NCBI GenBank assembly: GCA_000004985.1
Contig: GG738848.1
Direction: 5' to 3' (one strand)
DNA from: Naegleria gruberi
Lineage: Eukaryota
Length of the DNA: 64,000 nt
Positions 1,436-61,803 of the stretch are shown in pieces. Below the pieces are notes generated by a model. It saw only the letters and a list, made by a program, of their open reading frames with translations, was not told where the DNA came from and ran no database searches. Position 1 is the first letter of the stretch; every line of letters begins with the position of its first letter. The position numbers were made by a program, and so were the translations under genes.

Positions 1436-1958
1436 AGCATGTTATACTTGAATGGAAACAAGTTCTCTATTAATAAAAAAATAAGTTGGATTCAATTTTA
1501 CAACAAAGCCATAAAATACATATCCAATTAGAATAAAGTAATTTCACCTTCCTCTTGTAGATATGAAGACTTTGATTGTTGTAAAGTTTTGGGTTTTGTT
1601 TTTCGATTTTTTGCATTTTCAAAAATGTGGATGACGCAGATGCATTGTTGTTGTTTAACATGTTATTGAATACAAATCAACAATATTGTTGATTTGTAAT
1701 GATTTGTTATCTGAATCTTGTTTTTTGGAAAGTTATCTGATGAACATTTTGGGACGAAACATTATCTCTTCACAACTTGGAGAGTTTCCAACAACAAGTT
1801 TAAGAGAAAACAATTCCCATTCGGTTCGATACTATCTACTCTTGGGTAATGAGTTTGTTTTTCATTGTTATTTTCATTATCTCTTGCGGTATTTTACGTT
1901 TTGAATAAATAGTGGAAAGCAAAGAGTGAATGTTTGAATCAATAACAAAAAAAACAAA

Positions 1959-3651: not shown

Positions 3652-6256
3652 TTATTGCAAGATGAGATGAACTGTAATTTCCTCTTGTTCTGAAGAAATA
3701 TTAAGGATTCTCATCTTTTCATTCGATTTTAATAGAGAGGCTAGAGGAGTAGTCAAGTATGATTGCTCGTTATGTTCTGAGAATATTGATGGAGCAAATA
3801 AAGAACCAGTTTCTCCCTTGGAATTTGTAATGAAAATTGTGTCCATCTCCTGATTGAGTGTTCTAGCTTCCTTCACCAATTCCTCAATGGTATCTGTAAA
3901 TTTCATATGAATTTCTTTAATATTATCAGAAATGTTCTCATAATGAATGTCTAAATCATCCAAACAGATATTATACTTGATATAGGAAAGTTTCTTTGAA
4001 TATTGATTCAACTGTTGAAGATATTGAAGTAAATGAAAACATTGAATTGATGCTGCCACGGATGTGGTAGTAATCAGAGCTGGATGAATTGCTCCAGCTA
4101 TTTTCTTTGCTTTGAAAAACTCAATTGGCTTACAAAGTTTCCTCCCAAAAAGGAAAAAGTTTTCTGCCCTAATATTGGAAGTGTCTTGAACGAACTGAAC
4201 CATCAAATCATCATCTTTTTCATATACTAAAGGTTTGAATGGTGAATTGACCTTCATATTTGAGTGAGTCATCTCTTCACTTTTTTCAGGAATAGTTATT
4301 TGGTGGTGAAACTTATTTTCATATTGTTGCAATTCTTCCCTTGTCAATGGCATGAATGGAAATTCAACACTTGATACAGATCTTGTTGATGGAATCAAAT
4401 CATTATTATCAAGATGTCTGTACAGTAAATAAATAGTAGTATTCATAAATGAGAAGTGACTCTCCTTTTCATAATTCAATTTAGCAGGACGTGGAGTAAA
4501 CTCTACCGATTCATTAAGGAAATATTGAATCTTGTTATCTTCATTCAATTCATCCAAATTGCAAAGTGTATTTTCTTGGAATGGACTGACAAATAACTGA
4601 TTAAACACCTCACGTGCAAGCACATAGAGGTGATTATTGACATTTCCAAGTTCAACCCTTTCTAATAATCTTGGGACCATTCTTGTGAAATAATCTTCGT
4701 ATTTCATTTTACTCCACATGATTAAATCTTCATGTTTTTCAGGATTGCTTTTCAGTGTGCAGGATGTTCTGATCTCTTCTCTTTCTTCCTCCTCTGTTTT
4801 TTGATTCTCATTGTGGAAGGGCTTTGTTGAGGCGTAGAGATGGAATGAATTTTGTGAGTAAAATCCTTGAGTTCCAGAGTTGATGAATGGAATTTTGTAA
4901 AGATTACACTTGTGAGAGAGGAATTGTCTTGCATGGTCATTATCTACTGCACCAAAAACAACGTCAATGGAAGACCAGAATGAATCTTGATTAAGATATG
5001 ATTCACTGTCACTGGTCAACTTTTCTTCAAACGATTCAATATTGACCTTTGAATTAAAGTAGTTGACCATCTTTTTCAATATTTGAGATTTCTTTGATCC
5101 AATATCACTTTGAGAGAAGAAAAATTGACGATTAAGATTTGTCAACTCAATACTATCCATATCTGTCACGTACATTGAACCTCTAGTAGTACATGCATTC
5201 ATGACCATCAAGTTCTTTACCAATTCACAACCTATTGCTCCAGCACCAACAATTAAAATATTCAAATCCTCAAGACCTAGCTCTTGAATTTTGAGTTGGC
5301 TTGGAGCCAAAGATAATTGATCAAAAAAGAAATAATATGGGTGCTTTTCTTTTGACAGCTCCAAAATCTGACACAGAATCTCATTTGCTGTAATTGCAGC
5401 AAAAAAACTTGTCTGTTTGTTCATGAGTAATAAAATACTTTGTAAAAGCTTACCATTGCATAATTGGAAGTTTCTCTAACTTTCTCGTGTTGAATGAATT
5501 TTTCATGATAGAAATTTAACAATTGATCTTTAACTTCATTCTCGTCATATGAGTCAATTGGATTTTCCATTTCTTCCATCTTTTCTGTAAATAAATCAAA
5601 CAAGGTGTTGACATCCATATTGTCAATAAAATTAGAAACAAGAGTTGAGAATTCTTCTAATGAAGTGTTCTCAAATATTGCATTGAGAATAGGACCATCT
5701 AAACAGCTTCTGTGAAAATGAGGAATTTGCTCCGTTTCACTTTTTGGAATAGTCAATATTCTTCCAATAAGCCCACTCACTTGAACACTAACTATTGTAT
5801 TAGAAAGATCATTAAAATTTGATTTTTCAATTCCACATTTAACAATACACTTTTAACCATTAGAGATAAAACCTAAACTTTCACTTACTGAGAACTGTTT
5901 CAAATTATTAGAAACTTCATCTGCTGAAACTTGCTTCACATTTGAGTCAGGGTTTAATCGGTGAATTTCTTCTTGGAAATTTTCTCCTTTCACATAACTC
6001 TGATCAAAATTGTAAGCTATTAGAATAGAAGAAGAATACTTACATCAAAATGGATTGTTGACAAATCTCCTTCTTCAATAGCAACAAGAGCCATGGCTTT
6101 GAATCCTAAAAGGATTAAATTTTTGGTCAACTCGACCAACATTGAACAACTTTGAGTATTCCTTTGGTTGTACTCAATCATCAAGTTACTATTATGAATT
6201 TTACTTGTAGAATCCTGCCCTAAAGCATACTCTTGCCTGTCCCATAAGTTTGACAT
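3652..6256 (-). CDS. Single-chain ubiquitin-like activating enzyme E1 (inactive N-terminal plus active C-terminal adenylation halves; catalytic Cys domain); join(6256..6044,5999..5889,5849..5454,5412..3652), about 826 aa
   Basis: Exon 1 has the E1 N-terminal motif LWDRQEYALGQ followed by a degenerate nucleotide-binding region (LVELTKNLILLGFKAMALV), i.e. an inactive adenylation-like half. The large exon has LNILIVGAGAIGCELVKNL (GxGxxG), IELTNLNRQFFF, and a catalytic-Cys block CTLKSNPEKHEDLIMWSK resembling UBA1/UBA2 PICTLKNFP / PGCTIRNTP. Three short introns (44, 39 and 41 nt) use GTAAGT/GTAAGC donors. The ORF-track start MNKQ at 5424 lies inside the last intron. Confidence 0.75.
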
Positions 6257-6272
6257 TTTTTTGATCGAATGT

Positions 6273-6280
6273 TAACGTGA
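6273..6280. promoter_or_regulatory. TAACGTGA element in the 79-bp divergent intergenic region between the E1 and UEV genes
   Basis: Seen in sequence (gttAACGTGAtttcc). It shares the AACGTGA core with the elements at 7976, 8000, 8512, 9015 and 9036. Confidence 0.4.
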
Positions 6281-6335
6281 TTTCCCAAGTCACTTCACTT
6301 TTCAAACTAAACTAATTGAAAAAAATTGTATTACA

Positions 6336-7064
6336 ATGTCTTCATCACGTTTGAGAAGGATCAAAAACGATCTTACAGAGGTACAACAAAATGCTTCTCT
6401 TCCTCCTTTATTAACATTTACACAGACTGAAAATTCTAGTATCATTCTCTTTAGTTTTAACTTGGACGAAACATCAAGTCTTTATGCAGGTGCCAATTTT
6501 CAGATTGAAGTTTCATTCCCAGAAAATTATCCCCACAAACCTCCTTCTTTCACATTCAAACACACCGTTCCATATCATTTCCTTGTTGATCAAATTAATG
6601 GAAAGGTAATTGGCCTCTCAAAACTTTCGACATGGTCAATGCTATTCACTTTACAATCAATATTTTCTGATCTCTACTCAAAATTTGTAAATGAACCAAG
6701 TCAAGAAGATGCTGAACAATGTGGTGTTAATGAGGATATGATTACAGAATATAGAAACACTCCACAAATCTACAGAGAAAAAGCAAGAAACTCTGTCAGA
6801 AAGTTGCAATTAACTGTAATTGAAAATCCTCTTGATTCAAATGAAATGAAGGATGAAGAATCTACTGAATCGAATGAAACGATTCATGAAGTAGTAGTTG
6901 ATGAAAATAACTTGCAGCCAAGTAATCCAATTTTGGAACAACCACTTGATTCAAGATTTGTTAATTCCAGTAATCACCACAAAATTGTTTCTCATGAAGA
7001 TGAATGGAATTATGAATACGGCTTGTATCATTTAAATATGAGATATGGAAATTACAATCAATAA
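6336..7064 (+). CDS. UBC-fold E2 variant (UEV-like, no catalytic Cys) with an acidic C-terminal extension
   Basis: UBC-domain blocks RLRRIKNDL...FQIEVSFPENYPHKPPSFTFKHTVPYHFLVDQINGKVIGLSKLSTWSMLFTLQSIFSDLY align with E2 FxIxFPxDYPFKPPKVxFxTxIYHPNIxxxGxICLDIL. The HPN triad is replaced by YHF and the Cys position by Gly/Ile. It is divergently transcribed from the E1 gene. Confidence 0.6.
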   Translation: MSSSRLRRIKNDLTEVQQNASLPPLLTFTQTENSSIILFSFNLDETSSLYAGANFQIEVSFPENYPHKPPSFTFKHTVPYHFLVDQINGKVIGLSKLSTWSMLFTLQSIFSDLYSKFVNEPSQEDAEQCGVNEDMITEYRNTPQIYREKARNSVRKLQLTVIENPLDSNEMKDEESTESNETIHEVVVDENNLQPSNPILEQPLDSRFVNSSNHHKIVSHEDEWNYEYGLYHLNMRYGNYNQ

Positions 7065-7114
7065 ATATTTTATTCAGAATATATTGTACATTTGTTTTTG
7101 TAACAGATTATTGC

Positions 7115-7945
7115 TTATTGAAATAACAATCTATTTTCAATTTCGTGCAAATCCTCTTTGGTTTGTGTTGGAGCTACAGGCAATGAACACTTGACATATG
7201 CACCATGAGTTGTTCCAGTTGCTTCTGTACCACTACACTTGAACGGCCATTTACCAGTATTTGTATTGTAAAGAGACAAACAAGCATGACAAAAAACAGC
7301 ATTACATCTTGGACAGTGAGTATGCTTGCACCTGTCTAACTTTCCATCAGATGATGCTTGTCTTTCACAATAATTTCCACAATTAACACATAATCTTGCC
7401 AAAGGAACAACTATTTCTTGATTGGATAGATTAATCTTGGCAGTTACAGAGGATCTAGTTGTCAAGGCAGTGATCAAGGGATCTTCATTAGAACATCCAT
7501 TTCCACAAATTCCTTCACCATTCTTCCATTGATTGCCACAAATGAAACAAAAGTCAAATTTGCAAACATCACAACTCAATCTAACATCGCTGGTGTTTCT
7601 TCTAATGAAGTGATTCTTACACTTATTACAAGTAGTTGCTCTCTTGATCTTGTAATGAATATCATTCAATGCTGAATCAAACTCTTCAATTTTATCATAA
7701 TCGATATTGGCTTGATTGACCCAATTCATTGAAATGGTTTCGCCACAATTAGTTTCATCACTTCCAGTTACATTCTTATTGGAACCATAACAAACCATTG
7801 CTGTTCCTTTCGACAAGTTTTGTAAATTTTCAACAAGACAGTCTTGACAAATATAATGTTGACATTTAAGTTTCAATAATTGTTGAGTGCCAAGACAATA
7901 GAAGCATTTAGACATTTTTTTGACTTGAGAGTTCCCAAATGTCAC
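7115..7945 (-). CDS. Cys-rich RBR-like (RING1-IBR-RING2) putative ubiquitin-family E3 ligase, 276 aa
   Basis: Three Cys/His clusters: CFYCLGTQQLLKLKCQHYICQDC (RING-like C3HC4 start); CNKCKNHFIRR...CDVCKFDFCFICGNQW (IBR-like); CVNCGNYCERQASSDGKLDRCKHTHCPRCNAVFCHAC (RING2-like). About 30 Cys in 276 aa. The assignment is by spacing pattern only. Confidence 0.5.
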   Translation of the reverse strand: MTFGNSQVKKMSKCFYCLGTQQLLKLKCQHYICQDCLVENLQNLSKGTAMVCYGSNKNVTGSDETNCGETISMNWVNQANIDYDKIEEFDSALNDIHYKIKRATTCNKCKNHFIRRNTSDVRLSCDVCKFDFCFICGNQWKNGEGICGNGCSNEDPLITALTTRSSVTAKINLSNQEIVVPLARLCVNCGNYCERQASSDGKLDRCKHTHCPRCNAVFCHACLSLYNTNTGKWPFKCSGTEATGTTHGAYVKCSLPVAPTQTKEDLHEIENRLLFQ

Positions 7946-7975
7946 TAGTCAAGCTGCACTTCAAACAGCTTTTTC

Positions 7976-8008
7976 GAAACGTGATGAAACTTATACACTC
8001 AAACGTGA
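7976..8008. promoter_or_regulatory. Two copies of the (G/C)AAACGTGA element (7976-7984 GAAACGTGA; 8000-8008 CAAACGTGA) in the divergent promoter between the RBR-like gene and the UBL gene
   Basis: Seen in sequence: ttttcGAAACGTGAtgaaacttatacactCAAACGTGAtacacc. Confidence 0.4.
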
Positions 8009-8086
8009 TACACCCCAAAACGCAACACAAGAATTCAATAAATAGATTTTAAATCACAGAATATTAATATCTCAATTCATAAAAAA

Positions 8087-8356
8087 ATGTCCACTCCATT
8101 AAACGTTTCCATTCAACAAGGTGTCCATACTAAAGTACTCTCAATCAGTCAAACTGCAACAGTGAAAGACCTTGCAACCATGTACAAATCCCAAACTGAA
8201 CTTAAAGAATTCTACTTTTTGCATAGAACCACCAGACTTGAAGAAACTACTATTGTTTCTCATATTATTAAACATCCAAACCAAAAGTTAGTAGTTGTTG
8301 GAATTGCTAAAGGTGGTTCTGAAGAAGGAAGAGCATCAATCTTGTCTCTTATTTAA
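8087..8356 (+). CDS. Small intronless ubiquitin-like (beta-grasp-like) protein of 89 aa with an internal Gly-Gly 11 residues before the C-terminus (putative UBL precursor)
   Basis: MSTPLNVSIQQGVHTKVLSISQTATVKDLATMYKSQTELKEFYFLHRTTRLEETTIVSHIIKHPNQKLVVVGIAKGG|SEEGRASILSLI. Alternating hydrophobic beta-strand patterns and a central helix fit a ubiquitin-like beta-grasp. The GG is followed by a short tail, as in precursor UBLs. It sits between the E3-like and E2-like genes. Confidence 0.45.
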   Translation: MSTPLNVSIQQGVHTKVLSISQTATVKDLATMYKSQTELKEFYFLHRTTRLEETTIVSHIIKHPNQKLVVVGIAKGGSEEGRASILSLI

Positions 8357-8511
8357 ACCTAGTTGAGTTTCGTCAAGATATTGAAATAAACTCTCTTTTT
8401 TCAATTAAATCGAAATATTAATCATTTCTGCTGCTTATGAAATCAAGCCGTGTGATCAAACGAGAATCTAATTTTGGTGCCACTGGTGCAAATGATTAAG
8501 TTAGGAAGTCT

Positions 8512-8520
8512 GAAACGTGA
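8512..8520. promoter_or_regulatory. GAAACGTGA element 17 nt upstream of the E2-like gene ATG
   Basis: Seen in sequence: gtctGAAACGTGAaaaaaacaattaaaaaATG. Confidence 0.4.
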
Positions 8521-8536
8521 AAAAAACAATTAAAAA

Positions 8537-9016
8537 ATGTCAAAACAAAGAAGAATTCTGAATGAAGTTGCTGAAGCCAACAAGAACAATCATCCAAAGA
8601 TCAAATTTGAAATTTCCCAAGAGAATTTACATGGTTGGAATTGTTCATTTAAAGGTCCAGATAACACTCCCTATCAAGATTTGCAATTTGAAGGAACTCT
8701 CTGTCTTCCGTAAGTTTAGTTTGGATTAGTTTTGCTAATATTTTGCTTGGTTAGAAATGATTTTCCTTCATCAAGACCAACCTTTGTATTCTCTTCCAAA
8801 ACAATTCCATACCACATCAATGTAGACGATAGTGGTGTAGCTTCTGTCTCTTTGCAATGGACTCCCACACTCACAGGAATAGTTTTTGTCGAAAGTGTAA
8901 TTAACATGTTAGAAACTCCACAACCAACTTGTTCTGTTAGTGATGAAAGATTCAAATTATATCAAAGTAACAAAGATCAATATCAAAAACAAGCCAGCAA
9001 ATTCCTCCAAGAATAA
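8537..9016 (+). CDS. UBC-fold E2-like protein, about 151 aa, with Ser at the catalytic-Cys position and HIN instead of HPN; join(8537..8709,8755..9016)
   Basis: Exon 1 MSKQRRILNEVAEANKNNHPKIKFEIS...GWNCSFKGPDNTPYQDLQFEGTLCL (UBC N-terminal helix and the GPxxTPYEGG block). A 45-nt intron (GTAAGT...TTAG) in phase 2 joins it to PNDFPSSRPTFVFSSKTIPYHINVDDSGVASVSLQWTPTLTGIVFVESVINMLETPQP. This aligns to IYHPNINSNGSICLDIL...WSPALTISKVLLSI with C replaced by S. Confidence 0.6.
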
Positions 9017-9044
9017 ACGTGATCATTGTAAACTTGAAACGTGA
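9015..9044. promoter_or_regulatory. Two copies of the AAACGTGA element (9015-9022 and 9036-9044) immediately upstream of the USP gene ATG (9062); the first overlaps the stop codon of the upstream E2-like gene
   Basis: Seen in sequence: gaaTAAACGTGAtcattgtaaacttGAAACGTGAgacgaatcttaaaaaaaATG. Confidence 0.4.
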
Positions 9045-9061
9045 GACGAATCTTAAAAAAA

Positions 9062-33523: not shown

Positions 33524-33700
33524 AAATCAATTAAATATACCCAACTAACAGCAACAAGAACAGCCAATAAATTACATGGTAATTGCAGCTTAGACATTAT
33601 TACTGAGTAAATGAGGAAGGTTGTTGAATAATCTCTTTTCTATCAGCTTTCTAAATGAATTGAGGCGCGAATCACGTTCTTTTTTTAGCCTTCAAAAAAT

Positions 33701-51417: not shown

Positions 51418-54400
51418 TTAACAAACAGTCATGTTTAGACAACTCTTAGATGGTGTTGTTAGAATGTTTTCGTCTTGTTGTTGTTGTTGTTGTTGCTCAA
51501 CAGCAGTCTTTCTCTTCTTTGACAATTGAGAAAGTGAACTAGTTCTTTGCATGGCTAATTTGGTTTCAGCCATTCTCTTTTGTTCAATGTCCTTCTTGGC
51601 CTTCTTGTATTGGGTGGTAAAATCCTTAATGTATGCAAAGAATTCATCTTCTTCCTCCTTAGATGATTTTGAACATGCAAAGTGGAAATATTCACAACAT
51701 TCCTTATAGGAATTCTTGAGAGATTCATAGGCTTCAACTACACTTGGAAGTGTTGGTGCACATCTAGAGTAGAAGGTATTCAATCTGGTTTCGTATAATT
51801 CTCTTTCATTCTTAGCTCCAACTTGGTGAAGATATTCAATACGATCTTGAATTTGTTTAAATTCCTTGAACAAGATATCAATACTATCAACGGTAATAGA
51901 AACACCGAATGTACAAACACCTGCACTTTCCAATTCCTTTTCAAAGCACAAAGTGTCAATACTATCCTTTTCCAATACTCCAACAAGGTAATGCATAAGA
52001 GTCATTTCCTTATTGGTTGATTTGGTATCACCAAGTTTTGGCAAGATTGAAATGTGGAAACCATTGGCTGCTTCAAGTTGCTTCTTACCTCTGTTCATAT
52101 AGTTACCAACAGTCAAGACATATTTGAGAACTTTGGCAAATGATTCAGAGGTACGAACAATACGAATAGCTTCTTGCTTTCTCTTAATCTTGAGAGTGAG
52201 ATTATCAAGAGTGCTTTCAAAGGTGTGCATGTAACCAATAACATTGACCTTTGCTTCAATGTTCTTAACGGAGAGGAGTGAAAGTAAGAATTCTTCAGTT
52301 CTCAACAACTTTTCCTTTGCCTCGAGCTCCTTCTTCTTACTTGCCAATTCATTAGCAATATTAACCAAACGCTTCAAATTGTCAACATGTTGAATAGAGA
52401 GGACACTGGTATCCAAAATGTTGATAAATTCAGTAATTTGATCATTGCTAAATGTCTTGAAGAGACTATTAAGAATAATCTCAACATTTCTATTGGTTCC
52501 CATATCGAGAATACCTTGATTGGTTGGAGTGGCAGGAACTGAAGACTTTGGTTTCATTGGAGTCTTGGCAGTAGCATCTTCTCTTGAGAACATCTTTTGG
52601 AATTCTCCCAAGTCAAGAATATTTTCATCAATGCTTGAATTATTCCAAACACTATTATTACTCACAACCTTAATTGGTTGCCAGTGAAGCTTTTTGATAT
52701 TGTTATCTTCAACCTTCTTGATAATGAGTGGTTTCTTGAGAGTTGGAATACCTCCCATCATCATTGGTGGAGGTGGTGGAACATTAAGATTGACTGGTTG
52801 CAATGGTGGTGGTGGAGGAACAACACTCAAAGTTGGAGGTGGAGGAACGCTTCCCATCATTGGTGGAGGTGGAATGGTAGAAGGCTTATATGGCTTAATT
52901 GGAGAGAGGCAAGAGGTAAGGACTGGATCATTCATATCAAGAAGAACACATTCGTTTTCCTTGTTTGGATTGTGTTTAGCAGAAGGAGGAGTAAAGTGAA
53001 GCAAGTTTTGTTCTCTCATTGGAGTGAGATTATTCTTCTTCGAACTGCTTCTACGAGCTGAACGTGGAGAGGACATGAGTCTCAACTTGGAACTACTGTC
53101 AGGAGTTAACAATCCTTGATATCTCTTATTGAGTTTAGCAGGTGTTCTACCAACATGCAATTCACTAAAGATGTTTGTTAATTGATCAATTTGTTCCATT
53201 TCAGAGAATATTCTCTTGTTTGGTGATTTTGATTCAATCTTCTTTAACATGGTATCCTTATTTTGAGTGAATACTTCCATTTCTGAAATCAAGTTCTTCA
53301 TATTTCTTCTGTGGGATTGATTTGTAATGTGAGCCAACCTAATGGCCACCTTATTACCCTTCAAGTAATATGGACAACTCTTAACAGTGGAATCCAATTC
53401 TGTTCTATATGTGTTAACCTTAAGTTCTGCAGAACTGTCAATTTCCTTCTTTACAAATGAAAATTTGAGTTGAATCTTGATATTGTCAACAATTTCATTA
53501 TTGGTGTGAGCCCAATCCAATCTATTCTTTTCAATACATAAAATATTGCCATTGTCTTGAGTTTGTAAAAAGACAGTATTGTATGTATATCTGAAAAGTT
53601 GTTGAATAGTACCCAATTCATCCATTTGATAACCAAAGAGAATAAAATCACCAATGAGTTTACATGCTTGCTTTGGAATTGGGAAATGATTATTACCAAC
53701 AGGTTCAACCTTCCTATCACCAACTCCAGCAAGTGAAGTGATTGATTCAGGTTGGGTACCATAAGTTGAATAGACAATTTGATTATTCTGTTTGACAACA
53801 AAGTAAATACCAGATGCTGTATCATTAAAATTCAAAAGATCTTCCTGTTGTGGACGTTGCTTTCTATTAGCATCCTTCTTGAAAACATCCAAAGTTGAAA
53901 GAACAATAGAATCGAGGGACATTAATTGAATTTCAGGAAGTGGCACTCTTGTCAAATAGTTAAAGTATTTGCAATAACGAACAACACTAGGTTCAAAAGT
54001 AGCAATCAAATCAATTTGTTGCTTGGTATAAAGTGATCCCAACACCTTTCCAATTGGTTTCTCTGTAATATACTTTTTCAATTCATAGTAAGCTTCAAGA
54101 GTGGTTCGATAATTTCTCTTGGATCTAAATTCGTTATCTTCAATATAGGAGAGGAAGGAAGCAATTAACAACAAGGCAAAACAAGTGTATTGTGCATTGG
54201 CAACAATTACAATAACACCCTGATTAGTAGTCTTGTTGGTAATGAAATTATACATGGTCTTACACATTTCAAAGAGGTGAGTAATTCTCTCAAAGTGAGA
54301 GATGGAGGCTAGTGTTGTAATTTCAGTGATGGAAGTGTTCAAATCGGATGATGATGAAGTATTCAAACTTGTATTGATTCCACTCTGATTGGAAACAAAT

Positions 54401-54728
54401 TGTCTGGTAAAGTTTATCACCATCACATCACCATACTTGTCTTTCAGCAATTGTTCCATATTATCTGAATTTTCATCGTCTTCCTTGTGGATGACTATTA
54501 AAACATCATCATCATGATAAAGATTAATTATTGTTGGTGTTATTAAAATTGTTGATGATGAATGTTAGGAATATTAGCATTAGAATTAAACATACACTTG
54601 AGGAAAGAACAAATGGAACACTCGTATAGATTAAACTTGTATTTGGTGGTAAAGCCTTCCACCATGTTCATAATCGAGCTTCCGCTGATTTTAACATTAG
54701 GCTTGAGCCACGTTTTAAAATTCATCAT
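51418..54728 (-). CDS. Formin with an N-terminal inactive PTEN-like phosphatase/C2 module, a poly-Pro FH1 and an FH2 domain; at least two exons (5' exon 54728..~54545, main exon ~54500..51418)
   Basis: PTEN-like: VIVIVANAQYTCFALLLIASFLSY in place of the HCKAGKGRTG P-loop (catalytic Cys lost), TLEAYYELKKYITEKPIGKVLGSLYTKQQI, C2-like GIYFVVKQNNQIVYST. FH1: IPPPPMMGSVPPPPTLSVVPPPPPLQPVNLNVPPPPPMMMGGIP. FH2: long helical domain with GNYMN...FLGD-type blocks (VGNYMNRGKKQLEAANGFHISILPKLGDTKS), then a C-terminal poly-Q. Confidence 0.8.
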
Positions 54729-55002
54729 TTTTTTTAAATGATTTTGAAACGTTAGATTGTGGCGCCATTTGTATTGAACGTAACGGTTGTTATTAAACTA
54801 AATAACGATATTTCGGACTAAATATCAACTTCTAACTCTTAAAAATCTTGGAAACGTTGCGTCTACAGTAACTATTAATTCAAGGTAGTCTTGACATATC
54901 AAATCGTCAATCAACTTCTCAATTGATTTGAAAACTATCATAAACTAGTGCAGGCAAAAAAGTAACTGTTTGGGCTGCAAAAAAAATGTAGGATGCAAAA
55001 GA

Positions 55003-57615: not shown

Positions 57616-58782
57616 ATGATTGGAAATCCAAATCCCAATCACTCTGATTCTCCTCCAACAACAACTACCAATTACTATTCAACAATAAATTCAAACTCTG
57701 ACAAGGAATCTTCATCATGCTCCAATAACAATTCGAATAGAAACTATTTGGAATCTATTCAAGCATCCAATGATATGTATCTTGTCCTATTTAAACAAGG
57801 ACTCTACTCCAACTCAACCATTACAATCAATAATGTGCAATATAAGGTTCATCGAGAGATTTTAATGGCCACGAGTGGATTATTCAGTGGTTACTTTTCT
57901 GGAGAGTTTGATGTTGATACTCAGTGGAATATTGAGGTTAAAGATTTGTTTGATGAGATTGCTTCTGTGGAAATGATTGATTTGGTCTTCAAGATTATGT
58001 ATAATAGTTATTGTAACTTTTGTAATGTTGTGGGAAAGAATGATTTTAGTGTTTCGTCTGATATTACAAGAGAAAATCTATTGGAAAGATTGAATTTACA
58101 TTACATTCTCAAATTCTTTTGTTATAATTGTATTGATGAGTATGATCCACATTTGGACAGATTAAAAGATGATTTCCAAAAACTATTCGAAAGATTGCAC
58201 ATTACCTACTCTATCATTCATAACAAGACAAAAATGAATTGGAAAGAAACCTTCCCAACAAGAAACATTGAAGAATCGGTTTATCTACTCAATCGTTACT
58301 TGGAAATCTTTCGAGATAAATCAGTCGAAAGAATGATCAAGTTCGATTCCAAGATTATCATCTATAATGGATTGAGATATAGCCATGGAGATAACGACTT
58401 TTGGATTGCCTACTTGTATCTCAATGTAATGGCTCCAATATTTGGTCAATCAATGAGCAGTAATCCAATTCTTAGAAAAGTTAAGAGAATTCCACATTTA
58501 GATTTAATTTGCTTTAGAAATTTATTATCCATGGACGAAAGTTATTTATTCCTTGCTCCATTAATTGATTTTGATAGTGAAATATTGAGAAATATTGTAA
58601 ATAAGAATGAATTCAATCGTTACAATGAAGATGAAATGAAACAAGCAGAAATTCAAATGGTCACTGATTGTCACATCAACTTTCCACATTCAATTTCACA
58701 TTATTTACTTTCTCTCTTCTTTTCCTCAAGCTTGGTTTTGAAAAATATGCAAAAATCACCTTCTAAAACATCTCTTCCATAA
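57616..58782 (+). CDS. BTB/POZ domain protein
   Basis: YLVLFKQGLYSNSTITINNVQYKVHREILMATSGLFSGYFSGEFD matches the BTB pattern (DVxLxVxxxxFxAHRxVLAAxSxYFxxMF). An S/N-rich N-terminus precedes it. Confidence 0.55.
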   Translation: MIGNPNPNHSDSPPTTTTNYYSTINSNSDKESSSCSNNNSNRNYLESIQASNDMYLVLFKQGLYSNSTITINNVQYKVHREILMATSGLFSGYFSGEFDVDTQWNIEVKDLFDEIASVEMIDLVFKIMYNSYCNFCNVVGKNDFSVSSDITRENLLERLNLHYILKFFCYNCIDEYDPHLDRLKDDFQKLFERLHITYSIIHNKTKMNWKETFPTRNIEESVYLLNRYLEIFRDKSVERMIKFDSKIIIYNGLRYSHGDNDFWIAYLYLNVMAPIFGQSMSSNPILRKVKRIPHLDLICFRNLLSMDESYLFLAPLIDFDSEILRNIVNKNEFNRYNEDEMKQAEIQMVTDCHINFPHSISHYLLSLFFSSSLVLKNMQKSPSKTSLP

Positions 58783-58799
58783 GAATCTAATATTTATTA

Positions 58800-61694
58800 T
58801 TACTTGAGATATTTGTTAATCTTGGTACAGAGTTTTGTGGCAACTGACATTATACTCAATTCGACGCTACCTCCATAACACTTGTTATATTGACAGCTAT
58901 TTCCATAATAAAAGGAGTTACATGAACAAGTATTCAGATTAATGCAAGATCCAACTCCATTACAAACATTACTAGCATTGGATGCAATTCCAAAACATTG
59001 ATAATTTTCACACATTGAACCACTATATCCAGTATTGCATTGGCAATTATTCATTGATTTACAAATACCCCTTCCTCCACAAACAGTTGTCTGATTGGAA
59101 AATGTTCCATTACATGTGAAAACTTCACAATTGTCACCATAATATCCAGTAATGCAGGTACATGTTCCAGATTGCTGGCATACGCCATTTCCTGAGCAAA
59201 CACTTGCATTGGTTGAGGCAATTCCTCCACAATACCAATCAGATTTGGCCAAAGCAGATGCAAATGATCTTCCAGGAGCAATCATGTAGGGCACGAGTCC
59301 TTCAAAGTGAGATTTCGTATAGAGTAATGATGGTGAGCTAACATAGGAAGTTCCTTCCAATAAAGAAGTTTGATAGTACTCATTTTCTCCCATAGCATAA
59401 ACATTACCTGACTTGGTAATGAAATAATAAGCAGTATGGCTTGCAAATATGTCAACTACAATTTCTGGAATATTAAGAATCAGTCCACCATTTTTAAACA
59501 TGGTCACTGAGCCATCAGTTCTCAAAGCAATCACATGTGAACCAACTGCAAGCTTCCTAACGGGATATGAATAATCCAAGTTGATCAATGTTAATGTTGA
59601 TAAGAAGTTAGCTGTTCCTGTTGTTATTTCATTCTTTTGATTGATTCCACATCCATATACAGTTCCATTTTGAGTTAAAATGAATGTCAACTTGTGTCCA
59701 GCATAAATTTCTTGAATAGTATGTCCATCATTAGTGAGTGAGGTCAAATCAACGCTTGTGATTGAGGTGGCTGAAGTGGAATATCCTGGAATTTGCCCTT
59801 CATAACTTGCACCAACTAAGTTACAAAATTATGTGAAATTTAAAATTTCAAATTCTTAACACAACTTACCAGCAAAAAGCATACCATTACGAAGAAGGAA
59901 CAATGAATGATCATAACCTGCAGCTACAGACTTGATTGGATATGGAAGATCTCCATAAAGATTCAAATTAATAAGACTTGTCGAAGTAGAAGTACCACCA
60001 TCTCCCAATTGATAATTATATCCAGCTCCATAAGAGTACCCTTGTCCACTAATTCTGTCCATAATCAATACATGAGAATCTGTAAGGGCAAAATCAGTGA
60101 AATTTTGATTCAAGAAAACAGATGAATCTATTGATGTCACATCAAATACAGGAATAAACAATGCTTTTTGTGACAGATCCATACCATTGGTACAATTACC
60201 CCATAATTTGTTGTTAAATGTTGGATATTGAGTGTCCAATAGAAGTGTACATCCATAACCTGCCTTAATTTGAGGATTATTTCCTAAAATTGCTGCAGCT
60301 GTTATCTTTGTTGGTTTTTGAACTATCTTAGGATCTCCAATACATGATTGGCCAAGATTGTTAGCTCCAAAATAGTACCATCCATCACTTGCAATAATGT
60401 ATCCATTATTGGTTAACAAAGAAGCTTTCAAAACAGTAAACCCTCCTGAAATAGTTTGAAATCCACTATTTTCTGTTCCCTTTTCCTCTGAATATCCCCA
60501 TGAATAGACATTATTCTGATCATCTATACACATAGAGGCATATCTAGAACATGAACAATCCACTATTGGATTAGTAAATAAATAGGTCAAATTAAGTGGA
60601 GCAGTAACTGTATAAACTGAAGTTGGATCCACTTGCCCATAACCATTTCCTCCAAATCCATAAACTCTATGTTGATCTGTCAGTACCAAAACATGCTGAT
60701 TTCCATAACATGTCTTGATCACTTTTCCATCAATGGCTGGTATTGGAACTTGAACTGGAGTTGAATATGGAGCATCATCAATTCCTGATCCAAATCCATT
60801 AGAATTCATGCCCATCATGTACATTTTACCATCAGTATCTACAAATGTCACTGATGTTTTACTGGCAAGATAGGTCAACATGACATAATCTGCCAAACCA
60901 TTAATATATGTAACATTCTTAATGGATGCAATAATTTGAGGAGTCCATGTGATGAGTGAATCATCTCCATAACCTCTAGTTCCATAATTGTAATATCCCC
61001 ACGAATGAACAAATCCACCTGTGGTGAGAACAAACATTGTCTCTCCTTTTTTGAGATCTCCAGCCACTGCAACCATCTTACATTTGTAATCACTTGGATC
61101 GAGCTCATTTGATGGAAGAGTTACCAAACTCCACTCCTTACTAGTTCCATTCTTCCAATAAACACTACCATCACTCAAACAAGCCAAACAAGAGATGGCA
61201 CACTGAATGTGTGAAATGTTTTTTGAGGTCATTGGATTGTAAACTCTCTGATCAGTTCTGTAAACATAAATTGATTGTAATTCCGAGCTCATAAAAGGTG
61301 GAGCTTGCTCATGAATTCCAGAAACTCCATTCTGATTATTTCCACATGTGAAAATGTGTTGTCCAAGAAAAGAATTCGTTACGTTATTGTAAAAATTAAC
61401 AACATAATAATTGTAAAAGTATCCATTGATAATGTGAGGAAGATCAAGAGTTACTCCACTCGTTGATCCGAAGGCTTTCTGATAGGATTCCTCTGGATTC
61501 GTTTGAAACATCCTGGTTAAATAGGAATTATAAAGAGGATACAATGTTGATTCTTTCAGTGCAGTTGCTCTTTGACCAGCTTCTCCAAAGTTATTCTTTC
61601 CCCATGAAAATACTTGTGATGATGCAACAAGTTTCGTTAGCAATAACAAACACAGACAGATGGCAACGTATTTCAATAGTTGTTTGAGTGACAT
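58800..61694 (-). CDS. Secreted RCC1-like beta-propeller repeat protein with C-terminal tenascin-type EGF modules; join(61694..59870,59815..58800)
   Basis: Signal peptide MSLKQLLKYVAICLCLLLLTKLVASS. RCC1-like blades (AAGYDHSLFLLRNGMLFAG; AGHKLTFILTQNGTVYGCG; VGSHVIALRTDGSVTMF; ASHTAYYFITKSGNVYAMG). A 54-nt GTAAGT...CTTAG intron in phase 1. C-terminal EGF modules CSGNGVCQQSGTCTCITGYYGDNCEVFTC and similar. Confidence 0.55.
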
Positions 61695-61803
61695 TTTTTT
61701 AACCGTGTCTGTTGGTTAGATTATACTCCTAAAACGGAATGGTTTACTTTGTTCCCAAGTTCTTCTTAAATTGAGCTACTTGTTTATATTTTACAATTGA
61801 TAT

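What the first reader, a model, noticed from the sequence alone, without database searches (positions are those of the whole stretch)
6273..9044. A shared (G/T)AAACGTGA element in every promoter of the UBL-system cluster
Six copies of the AACGTGA core occur within about 2.8 kb, and all of them sit in the few hundred bp of intergenic DNA of this cluster:
- 6273 TAACGTGA (E1 and UEV, divergent);
- 7976 GAAACGTGA and 8000 CAAACGTGA (RBR-like and UBL, divergent);
- 8512 GAAACGTGA (E2-like, 17 nt before its ATG);
- 9015 TAAACGTGA and 9036 GAAACGTGA (USP).
This fits a common transcription-factor site driving coordinated expression (an ACGTG core; GAAAC...GAAAC spacing at 7976-7995). The 9015 copy overlaps the stop codon of the upstream gene.
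Basis: seen in the sequence. Interest (0 to 1): 0.75.

Follow-up and report, generated by a model that had tools for sequence, protein, structure and literature searches.

The report
Shared promoter motif in Naegleria UBL cluster
A ten-base DNA word (BAAACGTGAT) sits in every promoter-bearing spacer of a six-gene ubiquitin-like-modifier cluster of the amoeba Naegleria gruberi and almost nowhere else in 64 kb, so it is most likely a dedicated switch that turns the cluster's genes on together; this has not been tested by experiment.

Summary
The window is Naegleria gruberi. AACGTGA occurs 10 times in 64 kb, and 7 copies lie in 6274-9044. Six are on the + strand in the 532 bp of intergenic DNA of the E1/UEV/RBR/UBL/E2-like/USP cluster. 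The other 10,365 bp of non-coding DNA hold one copy (Fisher 7e-8; expected 0.05, Poisson 3e-11). No G+C-containing 7-mer reached this count in 3000 shuffles.

All four promoter-bearing spacers carry a copy; the one 3'-3' spacer carries none. It forms an inverted repeat with the 6273 copy.

The motif is not a general core-promoter element: the ATG9 copy is what chance predicts. In a 97%-identical environmental strain (L001), both AAACGTG cores survive in a spacer that diverged 19%, and the E1/UEV spacer is 100% identical.

The best reading is a cluster-specific transcription-factor site with an asymmetric ACGT core. Binding, co-expression and genome-wide frequency could not be tested. I class it as a new member of a known kind, of moderate interest.

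The parts
6273..6280 (+). Motif copy 1, TAACGTGA. It lies in the 79-bp E1/UEV divergent spacer, 17 nt from the E1 ATG (antisense to E1) and 55 nt before the UEV ATG.
6345..6352 (-). It lies inside UEV codons 3-5, sense-oriented toward E1 (about -89 to -96 from the E1 ATG). It shares the 12-mer AAACGTGATGAA with copy 3.
6258..6367 (.). Inverted repeat TTTTTGATC-N6-WAACGTGAT, arms 6258-6281 (+) and 6344-6367 (-), bracketing the E1/UEV bidirectional promoter.
   Evidence: 2 matches, 0.00 expected
7976..7984 (+). Motif copy 3, GAAACGTGA, in the 171-bp RBR/UBL divergent spacer. The block TTTTCGAAACGTGATGAAACT is fully conserved in strain L001.
8000..8008 (+). Motif copy 4, CAAACGTGA, 24 nt after copy 3. 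In L001 the AAACGTG core is kept, the final A is displaced by a T, and the spacing is 26 nt.
8512..8520 (+). Motif copy 5, GAAACGTGA, 16 nt before the ATG of the E2-like gene.
   Evidence: (D2)
9014..9022 (+). Motif copy 6, TAAACGTGA. It overlaps the E2-like stop codon (9014-9016) and an AATAAA hexamer (9012-9017).
   Evidence: poly(A) signal of N. gruberi from PMC11529991
9036..9044 (+). Motif copy 7, GAAACGTGA, 17 nt before the USP ATG. Its register matches copy 5 (TGAAACGTGA...TTAAAAAAA-ATG).
   Evidence: (D2)
6282..6294 (+). Second shared element, TTCCCAAGTCACT, found only in the two divergent promoters of the cluster.
   Evidence: 2 matches in the window, 0.03 expected
7932..7946 (+). Second shared element, TTCCCAAATGTCACT, conserved in L001.
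8037..8045 (+). TATA-like AATAAATAG, 42-50 nt before the UBL ATG and downstream of motif copies 3 and 4. CAATAAATAGA is conserved in L001.
   Evidence: the function is inferred
3652..6256 (-). E1-like gene (ThiF and SCCH domains, several introns). The likely true start is the ATG at 6256, 38 codons upstream of the annotated start.
6336..7064 (+). UEV-like E2-fold gene (UQ_con/RWD, no catalytic Cys), NAEGRDRAFT_62733.
7115..7915 (-). RBR/IBR-type zinc-finger gene, NAEGRDRAFT_78190.
8087..8356 (+). Orphan 89-aa putative ubiquitin-like protein with an internal GG followed by a 13-aa tail.
8537..9016 (+). E2-fold gene with one intron (about 8710-8756). Ser occupies the position of the catalytic Cys.
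9062..10414 (+). USP/UCH deubiquitinase-like gene with introns.

Best explanation
BAAACGTGA(T) is a cluster-specific cis-regulatory DNA element: the binding site of a sequence-specific transcription factor. It is present once or twice in each of the four promoter-bearing spacers of a six-gene ubiquitin-like-modifier cassette of Naegleria gruberi (E1, UEV, RBR, UBL, E2-like, USP). One regulator can therefore switch all six genes together, including the two bidirectional gene pairs.

Shown: the copies exist, they are specific to the cluster's promoters within the window, they are the only shared non-AT-rich word, and they are retained in a second strain.

Inferred: that a protein binds them and that the genes are co-expressed. 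The asymmetric ACGT core has an AAAC half and a GTGA half, the 'T/G-box' type. From general knowledge of ACGT elements, this points to a bZIP- or bHLH-type dimer, possibly a heterodimer. That family assignment is a guess, with probability about 0.25.
For: - 6 copies in 532 bp of cluster spacer against 1 in 10,365 bp of other non-coding DNA. Expected 0.053, Poisson 3e-11. Shuffle and real-sequence controls never reach 6.
- All four promoter-bearing spacers have at least one copy; the UEV/RBR 3'-3' spacer has none.
- ACGTGA and AACGTG are the only non-AT-rich hexamers shared by all four spacers.
- The copies serve both strands' genes in the two divergent promoters, as an orientation-independent DNA site would. 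E1 additionally has a sense-oriented copy (6345-6352, -) arranged as an inverted repeat.
- In the UBL promoter the copies lie upstream of a TATA-like AATAAATAG, the position of an upstream activating site.
- The motif holds 6 of the 14 CpGs of the cluster's spacers, in a CpG-depleted genome. CpG observed/expected is 0.38 for the window, 0.66 for other non-coding DNA and 1.23 for the cluster spacers.
- In strain L001, both AAACGTG cores are intact in a spacer with 19% changed columns, and the E1/UEV spacer has 0 changes in 79 columns while other non-coding DNA differs by 19-48%.
- Heterolobosean genomes are reported to use conventional gene-by-gene promoters (bioRxiv 10.64898/2026.07.29.740908).
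Against: - There are no expression, transcription-start or binding data.
- Only 64 kb of a 41-Mb genome could be scanned, so genome-wide specificity is unknown.
- The cross-strain footprint is not significant for the motif itself: 1 change in about 17 columns against 3.2 expected, P about 0.14 (my calculation).
- All six intergenic copies are on the + strand (two-sided P about 0.03). Three genes have a copy only 16-17 nt from the ATG. Both facts fit a transcribed or start-site-proximal element at least as well as a classical upstream site.
- Spacing between paired copies is not conserved (24 nt against 26 nt).
Confidence: 0.6

Rival explanations
1. The motif is a start-site-proximal core-promoter (initiator-like) element used by a small subset of genes. 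It positions RNA polymerase II rather than recruiting a gene-specific activator.
For: E1 (reverse orientation), the E2-like gene and USP each have a copy ending 16-17 nt before the ATG. The E2-like and USP promoters share the register TGAAACGTGA-N-TTAAAAAAA-ATG. The single outside copy, before ATG9, is also proximal (22 nt, reverse).
Against: The distance to the ATG is 55-110 nt in UEV, UBL and RBR. In the UBL promoter the copies lie upstream of a TATA-like box. The motif is absent from about 25 other recognisable gene starts in the window. Transcription start sites are unknown.
Confidence: 0.12
2. The motif works at the RNA level. It would be a linear GAAACGUGA element in the 5' leaders of the + strand mRNAs (UEV, UBL, E2-like, USP), bound by an RNA-binding protein that co-regulates their translation or stability.
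For: All six intergenic copies are in the sense orientation of the four + strand genes. Two lie within 17 nt of the ATG and so are probably transcribed if the leaders are longer than 25 nt.
Against: E1 and RBR carry it antisense near their starts. E1's sense copy would need a start site inside the UEV coding sequence, and RBR has no sense copy. No significant RNA structure surrounds the copies (z-scores -0.55 to +1.34). Copies 85-110 nt upstream of the UBL ATG lie 5' of a TATA-like box and so are probably not transcribed.
Confidence: 0.12
3. The motif is a non-functional coincidence or a relic: chance recurrence, composition, or leftovers of promoter duplication that accompanied duplication of the two E2-fold genes.
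For: The motif is short. The AATAAA poly(A) hexamer contributes part of the 9014 copy. UEV and the E2-like gene are paralogous folds. The clustering statistic alone, Bonferroni-corrected over 8192 7-mers, is only about 0.04.
Against: The combined statistics are strong. Similarity between promoters does not extend beyond about 10 nt, so they are not duplicated segments. The promoters of the non-paralogous genes (RBR/UBL, USP, E1) also carry it. The CpG-containing cores are retained in a CpG-poor genome and in a second strain.
Confidence: 0.1
4. The cassette was imported from a giant virus or mobile element, and the motif is the donor's own promoter signal, as giant-virus genes carry a shared upstream octamer.
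For: The cluster is compact, functionally coherent and lineage-restricted, with very short spacers and a shared word 16-17 nt to about 100 nt before the ATGs. No orthologue was found outside N. gruberi-like strains.
Against: E1, the E2-like gene and USP contain spliceosomal introns. G+C content matches the rest of the window. The closest E1 relatives are cellular UBA1/UBA7 at about 28% identity. There are no relatives in IMG/VR contigs. The flanking genes are ordinary cellular genes.
Confidence: 0.04

Closest known systems
Hybrid ACGT elements: the plant T/G-box AACGTG (bHLH MYC2, bZIPs), and the E-box relatives TCACGTGA (Cbf1/USF/TFE type) and CACGTT (Pho4 low-affinity site). All recalled from general knowledge.
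   Same: All seven copies contain the T/G-box hexamer AACGTG with an ACGT core. The right half, GTGA, equals the half-site of TCACGTGA.
   Different: None of the copies is the palindromic CACGTG. The extended consensus BAAACGTGAT matches no named element that I could find. No Naegleria bZIP or bHLH has been linked to it, and the binding protein is unknown.
Functional gene clusters with one shared upstream site in every promoter: yeast GAL1-GAL10-GAL7 (Gal4 sites) and fungal secondary-metabolite clusters (for example AflR sites). Recalled from general knowledge.
   Same: Adjacent, non-homologous genes of one pathway, including divergent pairs that share sites in a common spacer, each carry the same short word.
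   Different: No cluster-linked regulator gene is visible in the window. Co-expression is not shown. The organism is a heterolobosean, in which no such cluster has been described.
The vertebrate ISG15 system (UBA7, UBE2L6, HERC5, USP18, ISG15), co-induced through ISRE elements. Recalled from general knowledge.
   Same: A complete, dedicated ubiquitin-like-modifier pathway (activating enzyme, E2-fold proteins, ligase, modifier, protease) whose genes all carry one promoter word. UBA7 sequences are among the best E1 hits. The modifier evolves faster than the enzymes.
   Different: The ISG15 genes are dispersed, not clustered. The ISRE is GAAANNGAAACT, and the single GAAAC-N5-GAAAC at 7976-7990 has the wrong spacing and occurs at one copy only. 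There is no orthology; the UBL is an orphan.
The yeast proteasome/ubiquitin regulon with the PACE nonamer (Rpn4). Recalled from general knowledge.
   Same: A short promoter word shared by genes of the ubiquitin system.
   Different: The sequence is different (GGTGGCAAA). It is a genome-wide regulon of conserved housekeeping genes, not a lineage-specific cluster.
Giant-virus promoter words, for example mimivirus AAAATTGA. Recalled from general knowledge.
   Same: A short word recurs just upstream of consecutive genes separated by very short spacers.
   Different: The genes have introns, host-like composition and no viral relatives.

Membership tests
ACGT-core hybrid element (T/G-box, AACGTG) | ACGT core flanked as AACGTG | tested here: met
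   7 of 7 copies contain AACGTG.
ACGT-core hybrid element (T/G-box, AACGTG) | Bound by a bHLH or bZIP dimer | not testable with these tools
   No binding data exist, and the N. gruberi proteome outside the window cannot be reached here.
Canonical E-box/G-box (CACGTG; CLEAR/CDEI TCACGTGA) | Palindromic CACGTG hexamer | tested here: not met
   There is no CACGTG in 6200-9100 and only one per strand in the whole window. The copies share only the ACGTGA half.
ISRE (GAAANNGAAACT) | Two GAAA repeats separated by 1-2 nt, present in each promoter | tested here: not met
   GAAAC at 7976 and 7986 are 10 nt apart start to start. No second GAAAC accompanies the other copies.
General core-promoter element of N. 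gruberi | Present upstream of a large share of unrelated genes | tested here: not met
   There is 1 copy in 10,365 bp of other non-coding DNA (about 1.0 expected), and none in the 90 nt before other gene starts except ATG9. This covers only 64 kb of the genome.
Co-regulated functional gene cluster with a shared upstream site (GAL/AflR type) | Adjacent non-homologous genes of one pathway | tested here: met
   Pfam finds ThiF+SCCH, UQ_con twice, IBR and UCH. There is also a GG-containing 89-aa protein, for which the UBL fold is not confirmed (pLDDT 46).
Co-regulated functional gene cluster with a shared upstream site (GAL/AflR type) | The same site in every promoter of the cluster and not in neighbouring promoters | tested here: met
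   All four promoter-bearing spacers have 1-2 copies. The flanking cathepsin-like and hexosaminidase promoters have no exact copy.
Co-regulated functional gene cluster with a shared upstream site (GAL/AflR type) | Co-expression dependent on the site and a dedicated regulator | not testable with these tools
   No transcriptome or binding data are accessible. No paper mentions these genes.
Giant-virus-derived cassette with a viral promoter word | Viral relatives, no spliceosomal introns, and composition distinct from the host | tested here: not met
   There is no IMG/VR relative of the E1. Three genes have introns. G+C is 0.33, like the rest of the window.
Structured RNA element in 5' leaders | Stable or conserved secondary structure around the motif | tested here: not met
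   Folding z-scores are -0.55, +1.34, +1.08 and +0.87. A linear RNA motif is not excluded.

The most novel reading that the evidence does not exclude
The six genes form a self-contained, inducible, lineage-specific ubiquitin-like conjugation cassette of Naegleria gruberi. It would be an analogue of the vertebrate ISG15 or bacterial Bil/CBASS-type conflict systems, kept together in 6.8 kb and switched on as a unit by one dedicated factor through BAAACGTGAT. Its chemistry would be unusual, because both E2-fold proteins lack the catalytic cysteine (one has serine). That would make it a eukaryotic 'regulon in a cluster' for a new protein modifier.
Probability: 0.15. Interest if true: 0.75.

Novelty: new member of a known kind. 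Interest (0 to 1): 0.45.

Why it matters
As far as I could find, no cis-regulatory element has been defined for Naegleria. If this motif is real, it offers three things. First, it is a concrete ten-base handle for finding the factor that controls an uncharacterised, strain-restricted ubiquitin-like system. Second, it is a search term for finding the rest of the regulon in the genome. Third, it gives a testable example of pathway-level gene clustering combined with a shared promoter word in a deep-branching eukaryote.

Tried and rejected
**More N. gruberi DNA.** I tried to fetch more of the genome to measure the genome-wide background. The reference genome is not in the contig index.

**Orthologous clusters.**
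- The E1 exon and a chimeric E2-like+USP query found no relatives in JGI metagenomes or in IMG/VR.
- A chimeric protein query at E<=1e-10 returned nothing.
- Only the RBR query found an orthologue, which gave one 2.7-kb contig (L001). The Logan copy of the same run adds nothing. This contig does not reach the E2-like and USP promoters.

**UBL structure.** The AlphaFold model of the UBL from a single sequence is unreliable (pLDDT 46), so I ran no fold search.

**Literature.** Searches for the motif string (the hits are shRNA control oligos), for Naegleria promoter motifs, for the cluster, for the gene identifiers and for expression studies found nothing relevant. The supplement of the N. gruberi direct-RNA paper is not held.

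**Readings rejected.**
- ISRE-like reading of GAAACGTGATGAAACT: wrong spacing, and only a single instance.
- Myb site YAACKG: the sixth base is T, not G.
- Poly(A)-signal reading: only the 9014 copy overlaps an AATAAA.
- Mobile-element or duplication origin: similarity between copies ends after about 10 nt.
Full report
**Source and gene content.**
The 590-aa exon at 3652-5424 (-) is 100% identical to 'ubiquitin activating enzyme E1 [Naegleria gruberi]' on a 712,659-bp contig. The next best hit has only 28% identity.
- E1-like gene, ThiF + SCCH, 3652-6256 (-), with introns.
- E2-fold 'UEV', 6336-7064 (+).
- IBR/RBR-type zinc-finger protein, 7115-7915 (-).
- An 89-aa protein with an internal GG, 8087-8356 (+).
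- A second E2-fold protein with one intron, 8537-9016 (+).
- A USP/UCH protease, 9062-10414 (+).

The flanking genes are ordinary: a papain-family protease, a GH20 hexosaminidase and a kinase. RBR and UEV are the uncharacterised NAEGRDRAFT_78190 and NAEGRDRAFT_62733.

**The observation.**
AACGTGA occurs 10 times in the window on both strands, against 3.86 +/- 2.06 expected. Seven copies lie between 6274 and 9044. The copy given as 9015 starts at 9014 and overlaps the stop codon of the E2-like gene and an AATAAA hexamer.

It shares the 12-mer AAACGTGATGAA with the 7977 copy. With the 6273 copy it forms an inverted repeat, TTTTTGATC-N6-WAACGTGAT, with arms at 6258-6281 and 6344-6367.

The seven copies give the consensus B-A-A-A-C-G-T-G-A-T. 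Nothing is conserved beyond these ten positions.

**Is it more than chance?**
- I masked long ORFs as coding, which leaves about 11 kb of non-coding DNA. The 532 bp of cluster spacers hold 6 copies and the other 10,365 bp hold 1 (Fisher 7e-8; it is the top 7-mer).
- A first-order Markov model of non-coding DNA expects 0.053 copies in the cluster spacers (Poisson 3e-11) and 1.03 elsewhere.
- In 3000 dinucleotide-preserving shuffles of the spacers, no 7-mer with at least 3 G/C exceeded 4 copies. One shuffle in 3000 reached 6 when 2 G/C were allowed.
- Among 35 real groups of four neighbouring non-coding segments, the best G/C-containing 7-mer reached at most 5, in 1129 bp.
- Across all 8192 strand-collapsed 7-mers, AACGTGA is the second most spatially clustered in the window. 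The first, TCCATAA, comes from RCC1 repeats in coding sequence.
- The motif carries 6 of the 14 CpGs of the cluster spacers, in a window whose CpG observed/expected ratio is 0.38.

**Distribution.**
- All four promoter-bearing spacers have one or two copies: E1/UEV 79 bp, RBR/UBL 171 bp, UBL-to-E2-like 180 bp, E2-like-to-USP 45 bp. The single 3'-3' spacer (7065-7114) has none.
- ACGTGA and AACGTG are the only non-AT-rich hexamers shared by all four.
- The distance to the ATG is 16-17 nt for E1 (reverse orientation), the E2-like gene and USP, and 55-110 nt for UEV, UBL and RBR.
- The E2-like and USP promoters share the register TGAAACGTGA...TTAAAAAAA-ATG (D2).
- Where two copies occur together they are 22-24 nt apart.
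- A second word, TTCCCAA(N0-2)GTCACT, occurs exactly twice in the window, once in each of the two divergent promoters (0.03 expected).

**Is it a general promoter element?**
Within this window it is not. The only other non-coding copy is the reverse one 22 nt before the ATG9 start (33672-33678), and one copy is what chance predicts. The other two copies (33957, 45262) are in coding sequence. Of about 25 recognisable gene starts, only the cluster genes, ATG9 and the neighbouring protease (TTACGTTT) have any ACGT in the 90 nt upstream. GAAACGTT occurs three times in the window against 1.34 expected. The limitation is that 64 kb is 0.15% of the genome.

**Comparative evidence.**
The RBR protein retrieved a 95%-identical protein from an ENA metagenome. 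Its 2,710-bp contig (L001) covers UBL, RBR, UEV and the 5' end of E1 at 97% nucleotide identity. Per-region divergence:

| Region | Changed columns |
|---|---|
| UEV coding sequence | 1.4% |
| RBR coding sequence | 2.9% |
| UBL coding sequence | 8.5% |
| UEV/RBR 3' spacer | 18.6% |
| RBR/UBL spacer | 19.1% |
| UBL 3' flank | 48% |
| E1/UEV spacer | 0 of 79 |

If the E1/UEV spacer evolved like the other spacers, zero changes would have a probability near 6e-8 (my calculation). That promoter, with its motif copy and the TTCCCAAGTCACT word, is therefore under strong constraint.

In the RBR/UBL spacer the changes fall between conserved blocks. The block TTTTCGAAACGTGATGAAACT is intact. In the second copy AAACGTG is intact but the final A is displaced, and the spacing grows from 24 to 26 nt. 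CAATAAATAGA, a TATA-like box downstream of both copies, is also intact.

For the motif alone this footprint is not significant (about 1 change in 17 columns against 3.2 expected, P about 0.14). The contig stops before the E2-like and USP promoters. No further relatives were found in JGI metagenomes or IMG/VR.

**Mechanism.**
The simplest account is a DNA site for a sequence-specific factor shared by the cluster's promoters.
- It serves genes on both strands from the two divergent spacers.
- It sits upstream of a TATA-like box in the UBL promoter.
- It is specific to a set of functionally linked genes.
- It is kept despite CpG depletion.
- Heterolobosean genomes are reported to have conventional gene-by-gene promoters rich in factor motifs.
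- The core is an asymmetric ACGT element: an AAAC half like the palindrome AAACGTTT, and a GTGA half like TCACGTGA. From general knowledge this is the type bound by bZIP or bHLH dimers, often heterodimers. This assignment is inference only.

Two facts fit less well and keep the rival explanations alive. All six intergenic copies are on the + strand, and three genes have a copy only 16-17 nt from the ATG. The first rival is a start-site-proximal, initiator-like element. The second is a linear RNA element in the 5' leaders of the + strand genes. RNA folding shows no structure. E1 and RBR would not carry a sense copy in a normal leader, which argues against the RNA reading.

A viral or mobile origin of the cassette is unlikely. 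Three genes have introns, the composition matches the host, the closest E1 relatives are cellular, and there are no viral hits. Simple promoter duplication is excluded because similarity ends after ten bases.

**Comparison with known systems.**
- As a sequence it belongs with hybrid ACGT elements (T/G-box AACGTG). It fails the test for a canonical E-box/G-box (no CACGTG) and for an ISRE (wrong spacing, one instance).
- As an arrangement it works like clusters such as GAL1-10-7 or fungal metabolite clusters, where each promoter of a pathway cluster carries the same site.
- As a biological theme it resembles the ISG15 pathway, whose dispersed genes share an ISRE.
- I found no paper that mentions the motif, the cluster or its gene identifiers.

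**Verdict.**
The interpretation as a common regulatory site is the best-supported reading (confidence about 0.6 for a transcription-factor site on DNA, about 0.85 for some functional shared element). It remains untested at the level of binding, expression and genome-wide specificity. It is a new member of a known kind of feature. Interest is moderate and comes mainly from the unusual cassette it marks.

Noticed in passing
window 8537-9016 (+) and 6336-7064 (+): Both E2-fold proteins lack the catalytic cysteine when aligned with human UBE2D2. The 144-aa 'E2-like' protein has Ser at that position (YHINVDDSGVASVSL). The UEV has Val/Ile. Neither has a Cys in the aligned active-site segment after the HPN-like motif. 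The E1 (CTLK) and the USP (GNTCYLN, GHY) keep their catalytic motifs. So the cassette has no conventional thioester-forming E2.
   Followed up: partly
window 8087-8356 (+); L001 53-313: The 89-aa putative modifier is an orphan. An exhaustive HMMER search of 1.84 billion representatives found only the strain orthologue (90% identity) and one marginal hit. It has an internal GG followed by a tail that carries a 3-codon indel between strains, and it diverges faster (8.5%) than UEV or RBR (1.4-2.9%). The predicted secondary structure order is beta-beta-alpha-beta-beta-beta, but the model is unreliable (pLDDT 46).
   Followed up: partly
window 6142-6256 (-): The public E1 model (P0001) starts at MLVELTK. 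The ORF continues 38 codons upstream to an ATG at 6256 with an A-rich context, and encodes WDRQEYALG, the conserved N-terminal E1 motif. The annotated start is probably too far downstream.
   Followed up: partly
window 8087-8356, 8537-9016, 9062-10414: The exact UBL sequence and the spliced 144-aa E2-like product are not in the 15-billion-protein collection. A combined E2-like+USP query found nothing at E<=1e-10. These genes may be missing or modelled differently in the reference annotation.
   Followed up: partly
window 6257-6335 versus L001: The 79-bp E1/UEV spacer, plus about 80 nt of coding sequence on each side, is 100% identical between the two strains. Other spacers differ by 19-48%.
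   Followed up: yes
window 9012-9061: The E2-like gene and USP are separated by only 45 bp. An AATAAA (the N. gruberi poly(A) signal according to PMC11529991) overlaps the E2-like stop codon and a motif copy. The 3' end of the E2-like mRNA must therefore overlap the USP promoter or leader, or the two genes are co-transcribed.
   Followed up: no
window 8101-8108: A perfectly palindromic AAACGTTT lies in UBL codons 5-8 and is conserved in L001. It occupies a position similar to the reverse motif copy in UEV codons 3-5. It could be a variant site facing RBR, or just coding sequence.
   Followed up: no
window 54708-54858: The long spacer upstream of the formin gene (51418-54564, -) and an RNB-domain gene (55190, +) holds CCACGTTTT (54708, -) and two GAAACGTT (54746, 54851). 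The window total for GAAACGTT is 3 against 1.34 expected. This may be a related T-box-type element, but it is not significant.
   Followed up: partly
window 1894-1901 (-): The papain-family protease gene next to the cluster has AAACGTAA (one mismatch, reverse orientation) about 60 nt before its ATG and just upstream of a TATA-like AATAAATAG.
   Followed up: no
whole window: CpG is strongly depleted: observed/expected 0.38 overall and 0.66 in non-coding DNA, while GpC is 0.80-0.94. This is of interest because N. gruberi has a TET-like enzyme.
   Followed up: no
window 58776-60981: TCCATAA is the most spatially clustered 7-mer of the window (11 of 20 copies). It comes from RCC1-repeat coding sequence in two adjacent - strand ORFs (58800-59828, 59856-61715), one of which also has EGF-like domains.
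   Followed up: yes
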